From NCBI GenBank assembly GCA_964106915.2, contig OZ066925.1: a DNA stretch of 64,000 nt; one strand, 5' to 3'. Both the position numbers and the translations under genes were made by a program. Of this stretch, positions 111 to 60,419 are shown in pieces. Within the stretch, counting starts at the first letter, position 1. Every line of letters starts with the position of its first letter. Under the pieces are notes generated by a model. The model was given only the letters and a program-made list of their open reading frames with translations. It was not told the DNA's origin and searched no databases. This DNA comes from Podarcis gaigeae. Its lineage: Eukaryota.

Positions 111-1000
111 GAGTTGGAAGAGAGTTGGAAGAGACCACAAGGGCCATCGAGTCCAACCCCCTGCCAAGCAGGAAACACCATCAGAGCACTCCTGACATAT
201 GGTTGTCAAGCCTCTGCTTCAAGACCTCCAAAGAAGGAGACTCCACCACACTCCTTGGCAGCAAATTCCACTGTCAAACAGCTCTTACTGTCAGGAAGTT
301 CTTCCTAATGTTTAGGTGGAATCTTCTTTCTGTAGTTTGGATCCATTGCTCCGTGTCCGCTTCTCTGGAGCAGCAGAAAACAACCTTTCTCCCTCCTCTA
401 TGTGACATCCTTTTATATATTTGAACATGGCTATCATATCACCCCTTAACCTCCTCTTCTCCAGGCTAAACATGCCCAGCTCCCTTAGCCGTTCCTCATA
501 AGGCATCGTTTCCAGGCCTTTGACCATTTTGGTTGCCCTCCTCTGGACACGTTCCAGTTTGTCAGTGTCCTTCTTGAACTGTGGTGCCCAGAACTGGACA
601 CAGTACTCCAGGTGAGGTCTTACCAGAGCAGAATACAGTGGCACTATTACTTCCCTTGATCTAGATGCTATACTCCTATTGATGCAGCCCAGAATTGCAT
701 TGGCTTTTTTAGCTGCCGCGTCACACTGTTGGCTCATGTCAAGTTTGTGGTCAACCAAGACTGCTAGATCCTTTTCACATGTACTGCTCTCAAGCCAGGT
801 GTCACCCATCTTGTATTTGTGCCTCTCATTTTTTTTGCCCAAGTGCAATACTTTACATTTCTCCCTGTTAAAATTCATCTTGTTTGTTTTGGCCCAGTTC
901 TCTAATCTGTCAAGGTCGTTTTGAAGTGTGATCCTGTCCTCTGGGGTGTTAGCCACCCCTCCCAGTTTGGTGTCATCTGCAAATTTGATCAGGATGCCCT
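111..1000 (-). mobile_element. CR1 LINE, 5'-truncated 3' portion (young)
   Basis: ORF 312..956(-) encodes the CR1 RT C-terminus ([55 protein letters not shown]). It is followed by a CR1 3' UTR that matches the copy at 24454-24558. Confidence 0.95.
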
Positions 1001-3966: not shown

Positions 3967-6002
3967 AGCTCACCTGGCTGGCGCTCATGCCCCCCCGGTG
4001 GCCGTCCAACCAGGTGCCGTGGGGGGGGCGTGTCCAGCAGCCTTGATGCTGCAGCGTCAGCCTCTCCCCGGCCTCATTTCTCTTCGTCGTCCTGTGCCCA
4101 ACCATAGGATTCTGTATATTTCAACATCTGTCTAGCACTGAAATTACTGGTCTTTGAACCAGTGTTTTCTATTCTCTTAGAAATGATGGAGGCCTAAATA
4201 CAGGTCCTTGCTGTGTCCTTTTATGTTTCATAACGGAAAAACAAAATCAAGCTTGTGTTCTTTAAGGCATGATACATCTAAGACCTAATTTGCTTTGTGT
4301 TCCCTTGCTGCATTTAATTTAATTTATTGGAAGCAAATTAATGAAGAATGATCAAATAATTTTAAAAATGGAAATAGAAGCAAATGAATGAAACAAATCA
4401 ACAGAGGGAAATAAAAAGAGGTTGATTGCTATAGTTCACAGGATAATTCCCATTTTAATTACATTAATCCTAATTGTTAGTACAGAGATAACGGAAAATG
4501 TATCACTTTGTAACAGAGGAGTAAGTTATGGAGGAGAAACAGATGGAAACATAACTATTGAGTTCAAATTCAATGTCAGACTCACTTTAAGAATTTCAAT
4601 CATTAGCACTGAGTGCCCACAACCGAAGGAATTGCAAGTATGCATTTAAAGTTAATTATTTAGGCAACATTGATTATACATTAGTGACTAGTGGAGTGCT
4701 TTCCCGTGGAAATGGCTGCAAAGCAAGGGAGAGCTGGCAAATAAGCCCCATGGACCAATGGTATCCTATCAGAAGGATGCAGCATTTGGGTGGAACTGCT
4801 GAGTTTATGAAGTACCCCCACAACCCCATCACAACACTGAGAAACATCACAGGCAGGCTGCAGCAAGTCAGTTATCAGGAGAGATCAAGGCTAAAAGAAT
4901 TCATCCCGGTGATCAAAACATAAAAAAACCTCCAGCAATCCCAGCAAAGGTAGCTCAGTATTTCCTTAGCTTCTGCCATAGGCTGAGTGCACACACACAT
5001 GAATCAGAGCCATGAGAAACACATTGGTCATACTCAGAGTAGGCCCCTTGAAATCTGTAGACCTCCTGTGAGAAGCATTTAGTTGGATTTCTCCCTTCAA
5101 TTTTTGACATTCAAAAACAATCAGCATTATCAAGGCCAGTGCTTTTTTTCACGGGGGACTCAAGGAAATGTTGTGTGACCTTTTGCAGCAGTTATAAACA
5201 CTTTTGCAGCACTTTTGCAGCAGTTATAAAATGCTTCCAATTAGTAATGTGAAGAAATTGGGGACCTTAGTTCTGAGCCTCACAGATTGTGTATATGTGT
5301 GATAATGTTCGCAGAACTTTGGCATAGGGAGACTGACCCATTCATTTCAATGGAGCCAGAAGAGAAATCCAAATGAAGGAAATGATGCAGGGGGTTTGCT
5401 CCCTCCATGGAAATGAATGGGGAAGACTTTGTGGGCTGTGGCAACTATAGCTGGAACAAATCTCTAGATCAGAGCAAGAAACTCTTTTCAATTCAGACTA
5501 GTTAGAGATTGATAGTTCAGGTCCTTGTTTATATTTGGTAGCCCCCCGCTATTAAAACAAAACAGCTGTGAAATACAATTAAAATTAAGGGAACTATGAA
5601 TGAAAAATTGGGAGTTTTTTCCAAGCAGCATGAAATCCCATCATATGAGAGGAGTAACACATTGCAGCTGCTGATAATTAAAGAATCTGCTATTACTATC
5701 ATTGTGCTTGGAGTTTTCTCTCACTCCAAACATGCTACTTTGTCTCCCTCCAGGTCATTTTGTAATTTTAGTGAAAGTCCAAGAGCTGCAGGCATTTCAT
5801 TATGTACTTAAACGTCTAGATCTACTGTGTATACATTGCCTACCTATGGATCTCTTTGCAAATTAAATTAATCTTTGGTAATGGTCTCAGAGGATTAGCC
5901 ATGGAAAGGGCAATAGAATTACTGTGTTTTCATAGAAGTGGATAAAAATATGAAGCATGTTGAATGTGTGTCTATGTTAGGCTTTGGTAGAGCAAAAGAA
6001 AC

Positions 6003-9051: not shown

Positions 9052-12000
9052 CTTTCCCCCTTCATGGGTCACTGCCTTGCCATGGCGAAGGGGCTTGAAT
9101 AACTCAGAGAAGCTATGAACTATGCCGAGCAGGGCACCCAAGATGGACAGGACATAGTGGAGACTTTTGACCAAACGTGATCCACCTGGAGGAGGAACCG
9201 GCAAGCCACTCCAGTATCCCTGCCAAGAAAACTCCATGGACAAAGACAACAGGCATATAAAGGTTGTGACGCTGGAAGATGAGCCCCTCAGGTCGGAAGG
9301 CGTCCAACATGCTGCTGAGGAAGAGGGGAGGACAAATAAAAGTAGATTCAGAGCTGATGAAGCGGCTGGGTCGCTCAGTTGCAGATATGCCTGGAAGCGA
9401 AAGGAAAGTCCAATGCTGTAAAGAAAAATATTGCATAGGAACCTGGAATGTAAGAACCATGAACCTGGGTAAGTTGGATGTGGTCATAAATGAGATGGCA
9501 AGAATAAATATTGACATCCTGGGCATCAGTGAACTAAAATGGATGGGAATGGGCAAATTCAGTTCAGATGACCATCATATCTACTACTGTGGGCAAGAAA
9601 CCCGTAAAAGAAATGGAGTGGCCCTCATAGTCAACAAAAGAGTGGCGAAAGCTATACTGGGATGCAATCTCAAAAATGATAGAATGATCTCGATACGAAA
9701 CCAAGGCAGACCTTTTAACATCACAATAATCCAAGCTTATGCACCAACTACTGGTGCTGAAGAAACTGAAATTGACCAATTCTATGAAGACTTACAACAC
9801 CTTCTAGAAATGACACCAAAGAAGGATGTTCTTCTCATTATAGGGGATTGGAATGCTAAAGTAGGGAGTCAAGAGATAAAAGGAACAACTGGCAAGTTTG
9901 GCGTTGGAGTTCAAAATGAAGCAGGGCAAAGGTTAATAGAGTTCTGCCAAGAGAACAAGCTGGTCATCACAAACACTCTTTTCCAACAACACAAGAGACG
10001 ACTCTACACATGGACATCACCAGATGGGCAGCATCGAAAACAGATTGATTATATTCTCTGCAGTCAAAGATGGAGAAGCTCTATACAGTCAGCAAAAACA
10101 AGACCTGGAGCTGACTGTGGCTCAGATCATCAGCTTCTTATAGCAAAATTCAAGCTTAAACTGAAGAAAGTAGGAAAAACCACTGGGCCGGTAAGATACA
10201 ATCTAAGTCAAATCCCTTATGAATACACAGTGGAAGTGAGGAACAGGTTTAAGGATTTAGATTTGGTGGACAGAGTGCCTGAAGAACTATGGGTGGAGGC
10301 TCGCAACATTATACAGGAGGCAGCAACGAAAACCATCCCAATGAAAAGGAAATGCAAGAAAGCAAAGTGGCTGTCCAATGAGGCCTTACAAATATCAGGG
10401 GAGAGAAGGCAAGCAAAATGTGAGGGAGATAGTGAAAGATACAGGAAATTGAATGCAGATTTCCAAAGAACAGCAAGGAGAGACAAGAAGGCCTTCTTAA
10501 ACGAGCAATGCAAAGAAGTAGAGGAAAATAATAGAATGGGAAAAACCAGAGATCTGTTCAAGAAAATTGGGGATATGAAAGGAACATTTCGTACAAAGAT
10601 TACCATAATAAAGGACAAAAGTGGTGAGGACCTAACAGAAGCAGAAGACATCAAGAAGAGGTGGCAAGAATACACAGAGGAATTATACCAGAAAGATATG
10701 GATGTCTCGTACACCCCAGGTAGTGTGGTTGCTGACCTTGAGCCAGACATCCTGGAGAGTGAAGTCAAATGGGCCTTAGAAAGCACTGCAAATAACAAGG
10801 CCAGTGGAAGTGATGGTATTCCAGCTGAACTATTTAAAATTTTAAAAGATGATGCTGTTAAGGTGCTATACTCAATATGCCAGCAAATTTGGAAAACTCA
10901 GCAGTGGCCAGAGGATCGGAGAAGATCAGTCTACATCCCAATCCCAAAGAAGGGCAGTGCCAAATAATGCCCCAATTACCGCACAATTGCACTCATTTCA
11001 CACACTAGCAAGGTTATGCTTAAAATTCTACAAGGCAGACTTAAGCAGTATGTGGACCGAGAACTCCCAGAAGTGCAAGCTGGATTTAGAAGAGGCAGAG
11101 GAATCAGAGACCAAATTGCAAACATGCACTGGATTATGGAGAAAGCTAGAGAGTTCCAGAAAGACATCTACTTCTGCTTCATTGACTATGCAAAAGCCTT
11201 TGACTGTGTCGACCACAGCAAACTATGGCAAGTTCTTAAAGAAATGGGAGTGCCTGATCAACTCATCTGCTTCCTGAGAAATCTCTATGTGGGACAAGAA
11301 GCTACAGTTAGAACTGGATATGGAACAACTGATTGGTTCAAAATTGGGAAAGGAGTACGGCAAGGCTGTATATTGTCTCCCTGCTTATTTAACTTATATG
11401 CAGAATTCATCATATGAAAGGCTGGGCTGGATGAATCCCAAGACGGAATTAAGATTGCCGGAAGAAATATCAACAACCTCAGATATGCAGATGACACAAC
11501 CTTGATGGCAGAAAGTGAGGAGGAATTAAAGAAACTTTTAATGAGGGTGAAAGAGGAGAGTGCAAAATATGGTCTGAAGCTCAACATCAAAAAAACAAAG
11601 ATCATGGCCACTGGGCCCATCACCTCCTGGCAAATAGAAGGGGAAGAAATGGAGGCAGTGAGAGATTTTACTTTATTGGGCTCCATGATCACTGCAGATG
11701 GTGACAGCAGCCATGAAATTAAAAGACTCCTGCTTCTTGTGAGAAAAGCAATGACAAACCTAGACAGCATCTTAAAAAGCAGAGACATCACCTTGCCAAC
11801 AAAGGTCTGTATAGTTAAAGCAATGGTTTTCCCAGTAGTGATGTATGGAAGTGAGAGCTGGACCATAAAGACTCCCTGGAAAAGACCCTGATGCTGGGAA
11901 AGATTGAGGGCACAAGGAGAAGGGGACAACAGAGGACGAGATGGTTGGACAGTGTTCTCGAAGCTACCAATCAAACTGCGGGAGGCAGTGGAAGACAGGA

Positions 12001-16719: not shown

Positions 16720-17690
16720 TGCCGGTGCAGCTATATCTTTCAATATGTCCAATTTTATAGTTGGGGCACCTTGAGCAGTCCCATTGTCTCTCGGTGTCTA
16801 TGATTCTTTGCCTGACCATAGCTTTTGCCTGGCCCAACCCCAGACTTAGAAGGGCTTGAGGGGCAAAACCCAGTTTCTGAAGGGTGTTCAGGACTGCAGT
16901 CTGCCAGCCTGACTGGAATTGGTCACAGAGGATCAGTGGGGCTATTCCTCAGGGGAGCAGATTCAATGTCAGCCATTTGTAGATTGATGTTAGGCAGATA
17001 TAAGCCTCCACTCTCATCATCCCCATTTCTAGTCTAACCCATGCATTTGAAACACTTCTGGGGACGCGTAGGAGAGCTCTGAGGAGTTTGCATTGGACTC
17101 TCTCAAGTGGGGAGAAAGCAAAGGAAGACAGGCCCAGAAAGGATCCATAAAGGAGCTGTGCCAAAGTTTTGGCCTTGTATAATTTTAGAGCCGCAGGGAC
17201 GAAAAAGCCCCCTTGTCCTCTGAAAAATGTAAGGATACAGTTTGCGGTTTTTTCCTCTGAGCTCCCGATGGAGTTTTTGTGAAGTTTGTTGGTTCCTGAG
17301 GCCTGTACCACCATTCCTAGATACTTATAGTTTGTGACTTGTTCTAATTTATGACCTTGGAGTTCCCAGATTCTAAGCTTTGGTTTTTCCCCAAAAGCAA
17401 GTATCTTGGTCTTTTGATAGTTGATTTTGAGACATTCAGATTCACAGTATGCTGCGAGCTTTCTTAGTGCTCTTTTGAGTCCAATGGGGGTTCTAGATAG
17501 AATTACCGCCTCATCGGCATATAGCAGGACCGAAATATGCCGATTTGCAAGCTTCGGCAGGTGGCGTTCTGAGTCATTGAGTGCAGATACTAAGTTATTT
17601 AGATAGAAATTGAATAGTAGAGGGGCCAATAGGCACCCTTGCCTGACTCCTTTGAAGGTTTTAATGGGGTCCATTAGGTGTCCTAGGCTC
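16720..17690 (-). mobile_element. RTE-X-like LINE internal RT fragment
   Basis: ORF 16949..17674(-): GVRQGCLLAPLLFNFYL, LLYADEAVIL (YADD variant), INYQKTKIL, YKYLG, LAQLLYG. Confidence 0.85.
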
Positions 17691-42430: not shown

Positions 42431-43532
42431 GTACTGACATCTAAAGGCCATCTCGATCACCAGATCATTGAATGTCAGTTACTAATTCTTTCATGAAATC
42501 TAGTTATAAAAATGTCACACAAGCTTTTTTCAAAAAGACATCTTGTCTTGATTCAGAGCACCCTTTCCTGAGAACTGAATAAGAAAAAAGATTCCCCCCC
42601 ACCCAGTAAAATGTATAATGTAGAACCTAACAGATATGAAGGGCAGAGGAAATGCCCCTGCGCTTCCTGAGAATTCTGGAGAAATGCTCTTATTATTGCT
42701 AGGAACTTAATTTTGAAGTTTTTTTTCTTACCGTTGTTTCTTAAAATAGAAGGCAGGAGCTAGTAAAGACCCTCTCTCCTAGTGTACTTTATGTTTCAAT
42801 TCCTCATATTCATCTCCTCCATACCAATGACACCAAGGGCACCAGTGCTTCCACTTACATGCACAGCTAATGAAGCAGCATTCCTTCTCCCCCTAAATGG
42901 AATCATTTTTCTGTCTTTCATCCAGAGATAAGGTGATGCAAATTAGAATGGCAAATCTCCTTATTGAGACAACATATGATAACCACCAGTTTTCCAAGAG
43001 CTGAGCTTGCTTTTCCAGAGACTCTCAATGTGAATAACCCATATGAGCATTTTCAGTATTATGCTCAATCTTCATTCTGTTTCCCCCCATCTTATTTTCT
43101 AGATTGTCATGTTGTGCTGTAACTTCTGTTGTTGTTGTTAAAAATTTGCATACCACACTTCATTCAAAGATCACAGGGCGGTTCACAACATAAAAATACA
43201 AAATGAGAACACAAAAGACATAATAAAACAAAAACAAACCAATTTTGTTTTAAATTGTTGTTAATTGTTAGGTTATGAGGTATTAAAAAGTACAATAAAT
43301 AAATAAGAGCTAAAGTCACTAGCCATATAGCTGACTTTATGATATTAGCATTGTGGTTCCAGTTGCAGCACACCCAGGCCTGTGCAGTGTCTGTAGCTAA
43401 GGTGTAATGAATAAACTCAAGCAGACAACAATCAGTGCACAAAATAGGCACAACTTTATTAATTCCAGATATAGGTGAGTTTTAGCTCAGGTGTTGGGTG
43501 TATATCCAGTTTCAGCCTCCTGGTGGAGGGCT

Positions 43533-43560
43533 CAACAACAACAACAACAACAACAACAAC

Positions 43561-43603
<43 letters not shown>

Positions 43604-43955
43604 TCCCCAGTCACTCTGGGCAGCTTCCAACAAAATATTAAAAATACAATGAAACATCAGATATTAAAAACTTCCCTGAACAGGGCTGTCTTCAGATGTC
43701 TTCTAAAAGTCAAAGAGTTGTTTATCTCCTTGACATCTGATGGGAGGGCATTCCACAGGGTGGACGCCAATACCAAGAAGGCCCTCTGCCTGGTTCCCTG
43801 TAACTCCACTTTTCACAGGGAGGGAACCACCAGAAGGCCCTCGGCGCTGAACCTCAGTGTCCGGGCCGAACAATGGGGATGGAGACACTCATTCAGGTAT
43901 ACTGGGCCGAGACTGTTTAGGGCTTTAAAGGTCAGCACCAACACTTTGAATTGTG
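43533..43955 (-). mobile_element. L2 3' fragment with compound (CAA)n(TAT)n tail
   Basis: Minus-strand AQFKVLVLTFKALNSLGPVYL..RAF motifs typical of L2. Confidence 0.88.
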
Positions 43956-44115
43956 CCAAGGATTATAGTCTTCCCAAGATGCCAATCTACTGAAGTGGCC
44001 GTCCTCAGGCCACTGCTGGAAACTCCATGGCTGTCTGCCCCACACTTGACTTCTGTCAAAACAAAACAAAAAATTCTTCCAGTAGCACCTTAAAGACCAA
44101 CTAAGTTAGTTCTTG

Positions 44116-44153
44116 GTATGAGCTTTCGTGTGCATGCACACTTCTTCAGATAC
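44116..44153 (-). ncRNA. Minimal type I hammerhead ribozyme (antisense copy)
   Basis: Minus strand reads gtat-CTGAAGA-a-gtgtgcatgcacac-GAAA-gcTC-atac. Confidence 0.8.
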
Positions 44154-44164
44154 ACACTTCTGTC

Positions 44165-44200
44165 TATCTGAAGAAGTGTGCATGCACACGAAAGCTCATA
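44165..44200 (+). ncRNA. Minimal type I hammerhead ribozyme
   Basis: tat-CTGAAGA-a-gtgtgc(at)gcacac-GAAA-gcTC-ata; intact core, predicted cleavage after C44197. Confidence 0.8.
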
Positions 44201-45520
44201 CCAAGAACTAACATAGTTGGTCTTTAAGGTGCTACTGGAAGAAAAAAAAATTGTTTTGACTATGGCAGACCAACACGGCTACCTATCTGTAACTTGACTT
44301 CTGGACAGAGAATTCCACCGAGACCCATCTAACCAGGTGTCCTGAGTACTCACCTGTGATACAGCAATTCACCCAAAAGCTTGATGACTAGGATTCCACC
44401 CAATGCCTTAACCACCCAAAATTGTGACTTTTGCAGTGATGAAGGCAAAAGCTTCAGACTGGCCGATTTGTCTGCAGATAAATTCTTTCCCAGCTCCAAA
44501 TACGGCAACCACTGGCAACCACAGATAAACTACAGCAAGGTCAGATAGTACAAAGGAAGCAAAACATTGTGAAGAAGCTACCTAGGAAACAAAACAAAAC
44601 ATGGCTAAACACGCAACCCTGGAAGAAAATATGTATGGTTAAATTTCCTAAGAAGCAAGCGATCTAAAATGCAATAAAAGGTTAAACTAAACTATTATAG
44701 GAGCATGAAGGGAGGGAGGGTTTGCTCTTATGCCAACTGCACTGGAAATGTCCAGCCCAGCCTAATTTTGGTGTCACTGGCGGACTGGAGTGGAAACTTC
44801 TAGCTTACAGCCCACCAGCAAAGCTCCACCCACTAGCAGCCCCCGATTGGCCCGTTCAAATGTTGATGTTTGGCAGCAATTCTGCCCTGCAGTCCCCATC
44901 ACTTCCTCAAAATGGGAAGCCAGATGTTGCCACAATTATCCGTTCTGGTTTTCCCTTTCACAGCAAGGCGATCAGAGATAGCCACTTTGCATGGAAAGCT
45001 GTTTTGACAATTGGATTTTTTCCTGTTCCATTTTGACTTTGATTAAAGCTTCACATTTCCATTAATTCATTTCATTACATTGGCAATATACAACAGTTTG
45101 CCCAGGGTGGAACTACACATTGCTTGCACCATGGGGGTGCTGGGAAATAGGGCACCCAGTATTCTGTGCTTCATTCTTGAAACATGCAGCATCTCTCAAA
45201 CTCACATGGAATATTCTGATTTCATTGTATGTACTTTCATGCCAGCTTGAGTGGCAATCATTGACAGGAATAGGGGTGAGGGCAACAGTGCCTAAGTGAG
45301 CATTGCATGGGACAAGGACGGGCAGCATTGTCTAGCAGTGTTAATTTGGGTGCCAACAGCCCCATCATCCCTTAATACTGGCATTAATTTTAGACGCTAT
45401 ATATTCAGGACCCATGGAGATGCTTACATTCAACCAAAGATAATCTCAACAGCACTGGGAACACAGAAGGAGTTGCTCTTAGTTGCTGTTCAACTATTGT
45501 AGAACTATTCACGTGAAGAT

Positions 45521-52283: not shown

Positions 52284-52421
52284 CAGCTTTTCTCAACCTG
52301 TGGGTCCCCAGATGTTGTTGAACCACAACTCCCATCACCCCTAGCTAGCAAGGCCAGAGCTCAGGGATGATGGGAGTTGTAGTCCAACAACATCTGGCGA
52401 CCCACAGGTTGAGAGCCGCTG
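52284..52421. mobile_element. hAT (URR1/MER5-like) palindromic MITE
   Basis: Long inverted arms ctcaacctgtgggtc.ccagatgttgttg / caacaacatctgg.gacccacaggttgag; 8-bp TSD atctataa/agctataa. Confidence 0.88.
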
Positions 52422-57572: not shown

Positions 57573-58701
57573 CCATCCCTGTGGCTCTAACAAATGATGA
57601 TAGGTTGCTGACATTAAAATGATTGGCAGCTGTCATATATTATGAGACGTTTGTTAAGAAGAGACAAATTATAGCAAGGATGGATGGGACTTTATGGGGT
57701 TTTAAAACATTTTATGGATGTTCTTAATAGGCTCTTCCCCTCCCCAAGACCAGCCTTCTATATTTCCACACCAGCTGAATATGTAAGAGCCCTTCAGCCT
57801 GATAAGCCAACTAAGCTGCTGTACTTGAATGCAGTCCAATTTAGTTCTATTTTAGTGGTATATTATTACCATTAATTCCACTTGTACTAAAGGTCAGCTC
57901 CTGTCACTTTATTACCAATAGTGGGCCACTTAAAAACAAAAACAAAAAAACCTTCTAATTCAGATTACGGTTCTCCTAGGGATGTTTTCAGAATGCTATT
58001 TTTGCAAATTTCTGTACAAATCGACCTGATCTGGAGCCCCTGGCCCAGTGTGTGCATCAGAACTGATTCACTCAATCTGTTTTACATTTCCTTGGTCTTC
58101 TCTTCTTTGCTCAAATATCAAAGTGCATTTAGAAATGCACATTTTGAAAAATAAAACATAGCCCTAAATTTTCCTGCATTTTGTTCATTACACAAATCAC
58201 AGTAATCAAAATCAGTTAAGACTTGGACTTGGAGTTACAGCTGCCACCATATTTAAGCTAATATAGCATTTCAGTGTTAAATTGAGAGAATCATTTGACA
58301 GGTTTTGAAGGAAGCAGAATTAGTTTTGCTTGATCAATAAATTTCTCAAAGGGGTTGTTCCTGGCACCCTAGTCAGAAACACCTTCTCACTGAGGTTGCC
58401 ATCCCAGCTTCATCCAGAACCCTAATTTGAGTTATGAGGCCTTGCATGACTTCTACTTTTGTAAATCAGTTCCATTGTAATATTTGTGATCTATTTCACA
58501 ATCATGGCTTATTAATGTGACTGGAGAACAGTATGACCGATATGCACATCCTATATGCATGTGAATGTCTTGTGCAATGTATGTCCTCCTTAGAGTTGTG
58601 GGGGAAAGCATGAATACTGCAAGAAGCTCATTAATCAAACAGATGTAGTTTCAGTAATTATGAAATCTTCTCATTAAGCAGCAGCAGCAAGTCATTAAAA
58701 C

Positions 58702-58736
58702 ATCTTCTCCAGCCTTTTGGCTAAGATCAAGTGCAG
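58702..58736 (+). pseudogene. 3'-truncated U2 snRNA retrocopy
   Basis: atcttctccagccttttggctaagatcaagtgcag versus the U2 5' end ATCGCTTCTCGGCCTTTTGGCTAAGATCAAGTGTAG, sharing the exact core GCCTTTTGGCTAAGATCAAGTG. Confidence 0.85.
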
Positions 58737-59253
58737 AATATCTCCTCATTAGGATAATGGAGTTCAATAAAATGATATTCCATCATTCTCCATAAGGGAG
58801 CAAAGTGGAACTTTTTGGTTAACTGCAATCACTTAGTGATTCGTTTTATCTTCCTCAGATCATGTTCATTCATCTATAAGACAAGATTAATTCTTCACAC
58901 AGTCAGGCTACACTCCTGAAAAAAATGCTTGGTCATAAAAGTTAACTTTGTAAAAGAAATTAAGGGCATTTTAATGAAATTAATATGGAAAAGAAATGAA
59001 TGGGTGTTTTCCATTTCTATCTCTCTACTTCCATTATTTGTTTGCCTCTTAATTTCAGGTTGAAAAAGGAATGGTCACAGGAATAGGGTTTCTCAAGAGC
59101 AGTTGAGAATCTTGGCTGAAGCAATGTTGCAGCTCTCAGACTGGAGCCATTGTTGCTCCTCCTCTTTCTTGTAAGAGCCCCATTCTGAAAGCTGCTCTTT
59201 CCTATCTGCCAAGTCCATATGTTAGACTGCAATAGTAAATGTTTACTTTTATA

Positions 59254-59612: not shown

Positions 59613-60118
59613 TGTTTACTTTTATACTTGCATGTAAATACCCTTTTTTGTTTAGCTTTGGGCGGAAGCCAAGACCATGTTATGATGGGCTAGAAAATGA
59701 CAAGCAACCCCAGGATGGACTTCTTCCAATTGCCCCACTTGGGATATTACCATAGGCCTCTTAGTGCAGCCTTTGAAGGCACCACCTCAAATATACATTC
59801 CTATTCCCTTACATTGGTAGTCCATTTCATTAAGATCTGTCTTAGAATGGTGCATAGCCATTTAGTTCTGTTTCTATCAGCCAAGATCCTTTTTGCTTGT
59901 AAGATTTGCTGTTTTTGGCATGCTGTTTTCCATGGTTGACATGTTCAACAGGTGCTAATTATAAGTTTCTATGCAAAATCATCATAATTTACTTCTTCAT
60001 TCATTTTCACATCCATTGACATATACCACAACGGTCTCAAGGCAACTTACAGCAATTTTGAAGAAGGAAAATATATATAAAAATACAATAAAATGTCATA
60101 ACTAATAATTTCAATACA

Positions 60119-60319
60119 GTTACAGATAGGTAGCCGTGTTGGTCTGCCATAGTCAAAACAAAAAAATTCCTTCCAGTAGTACCTTAAAGACCAACTAAGT
60201 TAGTTCTTGGTATGAGCTTTCGTGTGCATGAAGAATCTGAAGAAGTGTGCATGCACACGAAAGCTCATACCAAGAACTAACTTAGTTGGTCTTTAAGGTG
60301 CTACTGGAAGGAATTTTTT
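60119..60319 (-). mobile_element. Palindromic Penelope-like insertion with one intact hammerhead core (+ strand, 60237-60270)
   Basis: Same family as 44056-44291 in the opposite orientation; inverted arms; 13-bp TSD taatttcaataca (60106-60118 / 60320-60332). Confidence 0.85.
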
Positions 60320-60419
60320 TAATTTCAATACAATTACCACTGAATTTTGCATAAAATATAAATTTGCCTAAAACAACTTTTCTGTCTGGATTTTCACTTT
60401 TTGAAATATGGCAACACCA

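What the first reader, a model, noticed from the sequence alone, without database searches (positions are those of the whole stretch)
44056..44291. 236-bp palindromic insertion carrying two back-to-back hammerhead ribozymes, one per strand
Seen: a TSD-bounded (12 bp) element made almost entirely of a ~95-bp inverted repeat. Each arm ends in a complete minimal hammerhead core (CTGAAGA / stem II / GAAA / UC) pointing away from a ~12-nt central spacer. Established: Penelope-like elements carry minimal type I hammerheads in their pLTRs, with a short palindromic stem III (here AGCT) that is thought to work as a dimer, and they often have an inverted partial pLTR. Inference: a transcript from either strand would contain one ribozyme plus its own antisense. 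Self-cleavage would then compete with a long dsRNA hairpin (a possible ADAR or Dicer substrate). This could be a minimal ribozyme-bearing mobile unit, or a co-transcriptional cleavage switch inside host pre-mRNA.
Basis: partly seen in the sequence, partly recalled or inferred. Interest (0 to 1): 0.72.

Follow-up and report, generated by a model that had tools for sequence, protein, structure and literature searches.

The report
Two-armed Penelope retrotransposon run-off insertion
This 236-base DNA palindrome is one of over a thousand similar stubs of a Penelope-type jumping gene in this genome, likely made when both cut DNA strands each copied the front end of the element's RNA, and its ribozymes are predicted to be locked in a hairpin rather than acting as a switch.

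Summary
The palindrome, 12-bp TSD and two minimal hammerhead cores are real. Both arms match the pLTR of an RT + GIY-YIG Penelope-like element with intact copies in this genome; the 3' tail is the ORF's first ten codons. About 1,200 loci have this two-core form. Junctions differ (15 of 15), arms share haplotype (46 of 49), and 31 of 75 inverted arms reach further upstream than their partners, so the mirror arm is likely built anew at each insertion. Inner ends are neither random nor fixed: 6,116 of 14,393 core-bearing arms break at two bases just 5' of the core, about 31 nt below a TATA-like box. At the main site 65% carry an extra G (control 31%), as expected from copying a cap. Breaks at the cleavage site are rare (165). 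In a related organism's RNA-seq the paired region shows strand-specific A-to-G changes, including the catalytic GAAA. Best reading: a dead-end, twin-primed run-off product and ADAR substrate, not a mobile unit or switch. The scan noted such stubs before in other genomes.

The parts
44044..44055 (.). left target-site duplication, 12 bp
   Evidence: D1; modal TSD length in the family is 12 (28 of 77 loci with a TSD seed)
44056..44155 (-). tail-less inverted arm: pLTR from 6 nt above the core down to just before the ATG; inferred cDNA primed at the second nick
   Evidence: alignment to the 5' pLTR of full-length copy L178; outer ends of such arms cluster at -20 to -34
44116..44155 (-). minimal type I hammerhead with 4-bp helix I, extra A after A9, 5-bp helix II, AGCU helix III; predicted cut 44120/44119
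   Evidence: architecture as in PMC4209133
44156..44160 (.). junction filler ACTTC, a re-copy of the helix II/core stretch
   Evidence: D8; longer reiterated fillers in L053, L054, L116, L117
44161..44260 (+). tailed sense arm of the pLTR; inferred cDNA primed at the first nick
   Evidence: alignment to L178
44165..44200 (+). minimal type I hammerhead, helix I cut to 3 bp by the substitution at 44164; predicted cut 44197/44198
44261..44291 (+). PLE tail = start of the ORF (ATG 44262, MADQHGYLSV)
   Evidence: ORF start in L176-L179; 8,075 exact genome matches to a 26-mer spanning it
44292..44303 (.). right target-site duplication; its first 3 nt also match the parent's next 3 nt (microhomology)
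60119..60319 (-). second family member with a 13-bp TSD (60106-60118, 60320-60332), different junction and one complete core
   Evidence: TSD read from the sequence

Best explanation
The element is a very short insertion of a Penelope-like retrotransposon, likely formed when both nicked target strands each primed reverse transcription on the uncut, probably capped front end of the element's RNA and the two run-off copies were joined head to head. Shown: pLTR and tail identity; an intact RT + GIY-YIG parent in the genome; own TSDs; arms that end independently; a pile-up of inner ends 4-7 nt above the hammerhead core with an extra G. Inferred steps: (1) a TATA-like box in the pLTR starts Pol II transcription at or near GUAUCUGA, so the hammerhead is the first ~40 nt of the RNA and the RT start region lies ~100-130 nt downstream; (2) the endonuclease makes nicks ~12 nt apart; (3) one 3'-OH primes at the tail end with 1-4 nt of pairing and the other primes ~30 nt further 5'; (4) both RTs reach the cap, often copying it as C and sometimes re-copying the last few bases; (5) the ends are joined. 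The product lacks promoter and ORF and is a likely dead end. When read through by host transcription it is predicted to fold into a ~95-bp hairpin that buries both ribozymes and is edited by ADAR.
For: Parent: L178 is pLTR-ORF-pLTR, unit 3,010 bp, 910-aa ORF with RVT_1 and GIY-YIG. Clustered ends genome-wide: of 14,393 core-bearing arms, 3,582 leave the parent at G-119, 2,534 at G-121 and 4,118 read through. Unbiased 100 tails: 35 of 100 tailed arms and 37 of 75 inverted arms end at -115 to -126. Extra G: 2,345 of 3,582 vs 22 of 72 at a control site with the same reference base, Fisher p 4.5e-9; upstream contexts vary; an extra 5' G is read as cap copying for L1 (PMC11702581). TATA-like box 31-33 nt above, TATATAAG or TATAAG in older copies L189 and L228. 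Uncut template: 165 breaks at the cleavage site vs 80 and 72 at neighbouring bases, 17 of 30 inspected being true breaks. Independent arms: inverted arm reaches >=10 nt further upstream in 31 of 75; haplotype shared by both arms in 46 of 49; 15 of 15 junctions distinct; priming microhomology mean 1.94 nt vs null 0.37, maximum 0.70 in 2,000 shuffles. In vitro a lizard PLE protein nicks and extends both strands, starts at two sites that bound the tail and uses mainly uncut RNA (PMC11167929). Editing: T>C 16.7% vs 1.8% and A>G 4.4% vs 15.1% by mate strand in X23, same pattern in X24, absent in the tail and for C>T/G>A.
Against: No pile-up of read starts at the proposed start site in four RNA-seq runs; these libraries are dominated by passenger copies and are not 5'-end libraries, so the start site is not shown. 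The window copy itself has no extra G. Ends at G-121 are mostly preceded by T (78 of first 100 listed), not G, which needs slippage or a second process. The motif above the site also reads as a splice acceptor. Unequal arms could partly come from deletion across the hairpin apex; 3 of the 31 cases are doubtful (L045, L047, L048). 3 of 49 loci have discordant arms, and L018/L030 share one junction. The published both-strand extension is for a Poseidon, not a Neptune, element. The editing data come from another organism, without matched DNA.
Confidence: 0.72

Rival explanations
1. Same by-product, but the stop is a structural or protein-imposed template boundary at the 5' edge of helix I, and the extra G is terminal-transferase addition rather than a cap.
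For: The main break is exactly at the first base of helix I; reiterated re-copying of the last 8-16 nt in some junctions (L053, L054, L117) resembles repeat addition at a boundary; no start site was seen in RNA-seq.
Against: RT has already unwound helix I when it reaches this edge (inference); 4,118 arms read through; the TATA spacing fits; the G excess is absent at other break sites (22 of 72; 27 of first 100 listed).
Confidence: 0.1
2. The inverted arm arises by self-priming or fold-back (Arkhipova et al. 2013 proposed self-priming on an antisense template) or hairpin closure of a single cDNA, not by two priming events.
For: Arm haplotypes are concordant (46 of 49); some junctions sit on internal palindromes or look like snap-backs (L032, L049, L056, L003); the model is in print (PMC3846280).
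Against: In 31 of 75 loci each arm holds sequence the other lacks, up to ~880 nt in L082; the extra G occurs on both arms of one insertion (L053, L116); a sense-strand cap-like mark argues for a sense template.
Confidence: 0.09
3. A non-autonomous palindromic unit (retrozyme- or MITE-like) that is mobilised as a whole.
For: About 1,200 loci, narrow size class (median insert 217 bp among 90 loci with a TSD); simple junctions recur; L018 and L030, 23 kb apart, share a junction with different TSDs.
Against: 15 of 15 junctions distinct in the unbiased set; no promoter in the unit; continuous range up to full-length elements; cores on opposite strands cannot release a monomer as tandem retrozymes do.
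Confidence: 0.05
4. The hot spot is the 3' splice site of a pLTR intron (as in D. virilis, where the intron ends at helix I), or the palindrome is a selected cleavage switch in host pre-mRNA.
For: A pyrimidine-rich stretch ending in CAG lies at -121; precedent in PMC4209133.
Against: The main break is 2 nt below the AG; no constant upstream exon in 60 loci inspected; no forward-skip joint among the 15 of 17 joints shown. Switch: hammerhead fold -93.4 vs hairpin -157 kcal/mol; single minimal HHRs showed no cleavage in vitro.
Confidence: 0.04

Closest known systems
EN+ Penelope-like element insertions with inverted 5'-truncated pLTR, one-sided 30-40 bp tail and TSD (PMC3846280; PMC8557442; PMC2377424)
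   Same: Head-to-head inverted pLTR, one-sided tail overlapping the ORF start, 10-16 bp TSD, TATA/Inr-like pLTR, RT + linker Cys motif + GIY-YIG parent.
   Different: Here the whole insert is reduced to the two pLTR ends; inner ends pile up on two bases and carry an extra G, which the passages I read do not report.
Minimal type I hammerheads of metazoan PLEs (Cervera and de la Pena 2014, PMC4209133)
   Same: Short helix I, extra nucleotide after A9, G10.1-C11.1, palindromic 15.2-16.2; dual motifs on opposite strands 100-700 bp apart were already noted in Schistosoma.
   Different: Cores here are ~20 nt apart, so each is fully paired to its antisense; activity untested.
PAc (Poseidon, Anolis) in vitro mechanism (Frangieh et al. 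2024, PMC11167929)
   Same: Both strands cut and extended; two internal RT starts bounding the tail; uncut RNA the main substrate.
   Different: This family has the Neptune/Nematis-type linker; priming shows 1-4 nt microhomology; the paper does not address how the inverted junction forms in the parts I read.
L1 twin priming and 5' extra G (as described in PMC11702581)
   Same: Two target ends each extended by RT, joined by end joining; extra G at complete 5' ends.
   Different: L1's second primer anneals just beyond the first cDNA, giving non-overlapping inverted pieces; here both cDNAs cover the same ~100 nt, giving a palindrome.
Non-LTR retrozymes (10.64898/2026.07.22.740005)
   Same: Non-coding, pLTR-related, type I hammerhead.
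   Different: Retrozymes are head-to-tail tandems with same-strand ribozymes; this is head-to-head.
Hyper-edited repeats: lizard Penelope, frog Harbinger palindromes (Porath et al. 2017, PMC5625713)
   Same: Penelope is the massively edited LINE-class repeat in lizard; self-folding ~200-bp palindromes are strong ADAR targets.
   Different: The passages read do not link lizard Penelope editing to head-to-head insertion stubs or to the ribozyme core.

Membership tests
EN+ Penelope-like element (parent family) | Single ORF with RT and C-terminal GIY-YIG | tested here: met
   L178, 910 aa, RVT_1 9.5e-12 and GIY-YIG 7.8e-6; window arms align to its pLTR
EN+ Penelope-like element (parent family) | pLTRs flanking the ORF, with hammerhead | tested here: met
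   two cores 3,010 bp apart in L178
EN+ Penelope-like element (parent family) | Inverted 5'-truncated copy, 30-40 bp one-sided tail, TSD | tested here: met
   75 of 100 loci with an adjacent inverted arm; tail 31 nt; TSD 12 bp
Neptune clade | Zn-finger-like Cys motif in the RT-EN linker (shared with Nematis) | tested here: met
   C-x4-C-x2-C-C in the linker, read; criterion from PMC8557442
Neptune clade | RT phylogeny grouping with Neptune rather than Nematis | not tested
   no reference set held; Neptune is assumed from its occurrence in vertebrates
Minimal type I hammerhead | Conserved core, short helix I, extra base after A9, palindromic helix III | tested here: met
   not detected by Rfam
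Minimal type I hammerhead | Self-cleavage (as dimer or protein-assisted) | not testable with these tools
   needs an in vitro assay; at most a small excess of genomic breaks at the site
Non-LTR retrozyme | Head-to-tail tandem units each with a same-strand hammerhead | tested here: not met
   cores on opposite strands; definition
Self-propagating palindromic non-autonomous element (MITE-like) | Copies share a fixed internal junction and fixed ends | tested here: not met
   15 of 15 junctions distinct; both outer ends vary over ~10 nt; one exception pair L018/L030 in the biased set

The most novel reading that the evidence does not exclude
These stubs are a fossil record of the unresolved PLE insertion step: a capped sense RNA whose first 40 nt are an uncut hammerhead is copied from both target nicks, giving paired strong-stop-like cDNAs joined head to head. 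This settles the origin of inverted pLTRs in favour of twin priming on a sense template, and makes PLE stubs a main self-folding ADAR substrate of such genomes, with editing reaching the ribozyme's own GAAA core.
Probability: 0.55. Interest if true: 0.62.

Novelty: new member of a known kind. Interest (0 to 1): 0.42.

Why it matters
How PLEs form their inverted pLTRs is described as open (PMC8557442), and the proposal in print is self-priming on an antisense template (PMC3846280). Thousands of young copies here give base-level predictions: start site at -119 to -122, capped and uncut template, two priming sites ~32 nt apart, 1-4 nt priming homology. These can be tested with an existing type of in vitro assay. 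The stubs also offer a structural reason for the heavy editing of lizard Penelope reported in PMC5625713. The single window copy is ordinary.

Tried and rejected
Rfam scan of the window: no hammerhead family at E<=1. The first genome search was biased to copies with the query's junction, so counts use the tail-anchored first 100 matches on contig C1 and whole-genome pattern counts. The look-up of sequencing runs: no RNA holder listed on record; the raw-read runs laid came by species label of organism A. No read-start pile-up at the proposed start or cleavage site: uninformative for these libraries. Single arms do not fold better than shuffles. A six-frame ORF list of the window showed LINE-like fragments by eye and no host exon I could identify, so whether this copy lies in a pre-mRNA is not known. 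Small-RNA/Dicer processing was not tested. Literature searches: Penelope + hammerhead + inverted, Penelope + Neptune + palindrom + squamate (35), promoter/intron/pLTR (45), Penelope + twin priming (53; 3 papers listed, none on PLE mechanism by title), Penelope-like + hammerhead + dimer + lizard (54), A-to-I + Penelope (59), extra G + cap (65), PLE papers since 2024 (68). None of the listings or passages read reports an extra G or an end hot spot for PLE inverted arms; subscription journals, Repbase and Dfam notes were not searchable. The paper on dimeric PLE hammerheads (Lunse et al., recalled) was not held. No supplements were read; Fig. S2 of PMC11167929 maps genomic ends and may bear on the hot-spot claim.

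Full report
Observation. The sequence is as described. A 12-bp direct repeat flanks 44056-44291; inside are arms of 83 nt at 98% complementarity plus a 10-nt outer pair, and the RNA folds at -157 kcal/mol, z -24.8. Each strand carries CTGAAGA-A-GTGTG-CATG-CACAC-GAAA-GC-TC. The + core has a 3-bp helix I because of one substitution; the - core has 4 bp. Rfam does not detect them. A second copy at 60119-60319 has another junction and one core.

Family and parent. The window's genome (1.51 Gb; repeat content looks squamate to me, which is recalled, not tested) holds 8,075 exact matches to a 26-mer of the 3' end. Long copies lead into an ORF. L178 is a complete pLTR-ORF-pLTR with a 3,010-bp unit and a 910-aa RT + GIY-YIG protein with a Cys-rich linker, the Neptune/Nematis architecture of PMC8557442 (passages). 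Both window arms align to this pLTR, and the 31 nt outside the palindrome are the ORF's first ten codons, the PLE tail. Positions below are relative to the end of the 26-mer: TATA-like box -152/-150, core C3 -115, cleavage C -86.

Is the inversion point fixed? I took the first 100 tail matches on contig C1 as an unbiased sample. 75 of 100 have an adjacent inverted tail-less arm; 35 of 100 tailed arms and 37 of 75 inverted arms end at -115 to -126, and the rest spread from -34 to beyond -1000. 15 of 100 match my two-core short pattern, with 15 different junctions. Genome-wide, the two-core form with a spacer of 30 nt or less gives 1,238 + 1,205 strand hits, about 1,200 loci since most count on both strands. 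Of 14,393 arms carrying the core, 3,582 leave the parent at G-119, 2,534 at G-121 and 4,118 continue upstream; the remaining 4,159 end at neighbouring bases or carry point changes and were not resolved. These exact patterns also catch some older subfamilies.

What sets the hot spot? At G-119 the preceding base is G in 2,345 of 3,582, against 22 of 72 at a control position with the same reference base (my count; p 4.5e-9). The contexts upstream of that G are target DNA, the other arm or ORF sequence, not a parent variant, although in several loci the G could belong to the partner. An extra 5' G is the mark of cap copying in L1 (PMC11702581, passages). A TATA-like box lies 31-33 nt upstream. I infer a Pol II start there. 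Against: ends at G-121 are mostly preceded by T (78 of the first 100 listed), the window copy has no extra G, and RNA-seq showed no start pile-up. In a related organism, loose read ends at the same base begin with the complement of G in X21, X23 and X24 but not in X22. Breaks at the ribozyme cleavage site number 165, against 80 and 72 next door; 17 of 30 inspected are real breaks. The template was therefore mostly uncut, as found in vitro for PAc (PMC11167929, parts 1-2 of 4 read).

How is the mirror arm made? At a two-allele site both arms agree in 46 of 49 scorable unbiased loci and 27 of 27 in the biased set, so both come from one source RNA or element. In 31 of 75 loci the tail-less arm reaches at least 10 nt further upstream than the tailed arm, while only the tailed arm has the tail; 15 show the reverse and 29 are level (L045, L047, L048 doubtful). 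A fold-back copy of one cDNA cannot hold sequence that cDNA lacks unless the apex was later deleted. TSDs peak at 12 bp, and the tailed end shares on average 1.94 nt with the target, against 0.37 by chance (77 of 100 loci scorable). With the published finding that a PLE protein nicks and extends both strands from two sites bounding the tail, twin priming is the simplest reading. It differs from the antisense self-priming proposed in PMC3846280 (passages).

Fate of the RNA. Forcing the + hammerhead fold raises the energy from -157 to -93.4 kcal/mol. On either strand the antisense arm is made first, and minimal HHRs needed a same-strand partner and were weak even then (PMC4209133, parts 1-2 of 4). 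A cleavage switch is unlikely. In bulk runs X23 and X24 of organism A, laid on L178 4495-4640 (40 of 74 difference rows shown), all 11 T>C rows and all 7 A>G rows in the paired region were skewed to opposite mate strands: X23 16.7% vs 1.8% and 4.4% vs 15.1%; X24 25.1% vs 2.6% and 6.0% vs 19.1%. Four A>G rows in the tail and five C>T/G>A rows were not skewed that way. I left out rows of other types, two C>T rows in 4502-4544, the near-fixed 4586 and the near-empty 4538. Edited positions include A13, A14 and A15.1 of the core, and the strongest is a UAG. This is the pattern of A-to-I editing on both arms, but it is from another organism, pooled over copies, with strandedness inferred and no matched DNA. 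Heavy editing of lizard Penelope is already reported (PMC5625713, passages), as is editing of Xenopus Penelope (PMC10636886, passages).

Comparison and novelty. Inverted pLTR, tail and TSD are known PLE anatomy (PMC3846280, PMC8557442, PMC2377424; passages), and paired opposite-strand minimal hammerheads were noted in Schistosoma. It is not a retrozyme by the tandem criterion (10.64898/2026.07.22.740005, part 1 of 5 and passages). The searches listed under Tried and rejected did not turn up the end hot spot or the extra G for PLEs. Earlier notes of this scan (233 findings in at least 26 genomes) describe such stubs, and one suggests the start-site reading; I saw them after forming mine and they are not independent support.

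Verdict. Real feature; a new member of a known kind; likely a dead-end twin-primed run-off insertion (0.72). Interest 0.42, resting on the population-level clues to PLE integration rather than on this copy.

Noticed in passing
window 60119-60319: Second family member on the minus strand, 13-bp TSD, tailed arm truncated inside helix II.
   Followed up: yes
L018 and L030 (G000:C1 15.004 and 15.027 Mb): Two palindromes 23 kb apart share one junction and a rare variant but have different TSDs; by eye L018's arms differ in haplotype. Gene conversion or local re-mobilisation.
   Followed up: no
L053, L054, L040, L117: Junctions with several reiterated copies of the last 8-16 nt of the arm, like repeat addition at the template end or polymerase-theta templated inserts.
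   Followed up: partly
L144, L194, L209: Head-to-tail joins in which an arm starting with the extra G follows another unit that runs 14-70 nt into the ORF: possible template jumps that would build partial tandems.
   Followed up: no
window 44165-44170 and 44284-44289: The hexamer TATCTG occurs both at the arm's 5' end and at the tail end; it could allow strand transfer.
   Followed up: no
L235: Short head-to-tail array of 75-bp units, each with a hammerhead core: a retrozyme-like tandem of the same pLTR.
   Followed up: no
window 52311-52394: Another short hairpin repeat, sub-threshold match to mir-5408.
   Followed up: no
window 58700-58868: Degenerate U2 snRNA-like copy, 35 bits, below the gathering score.
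   Followed up: no
window 312-998, 9270-11891, 16949-17689, 43475-43993: LINE-like ORF fragments (CR1, RTE/BovB, other and L2-like by recall); the element sits about 70 bp from the last one.
   Followed up: no
L176, L177, L182, L224: Insertions whose inverted arm carries the tail, consistent with either nick using either RT start.
   Followed up: partly
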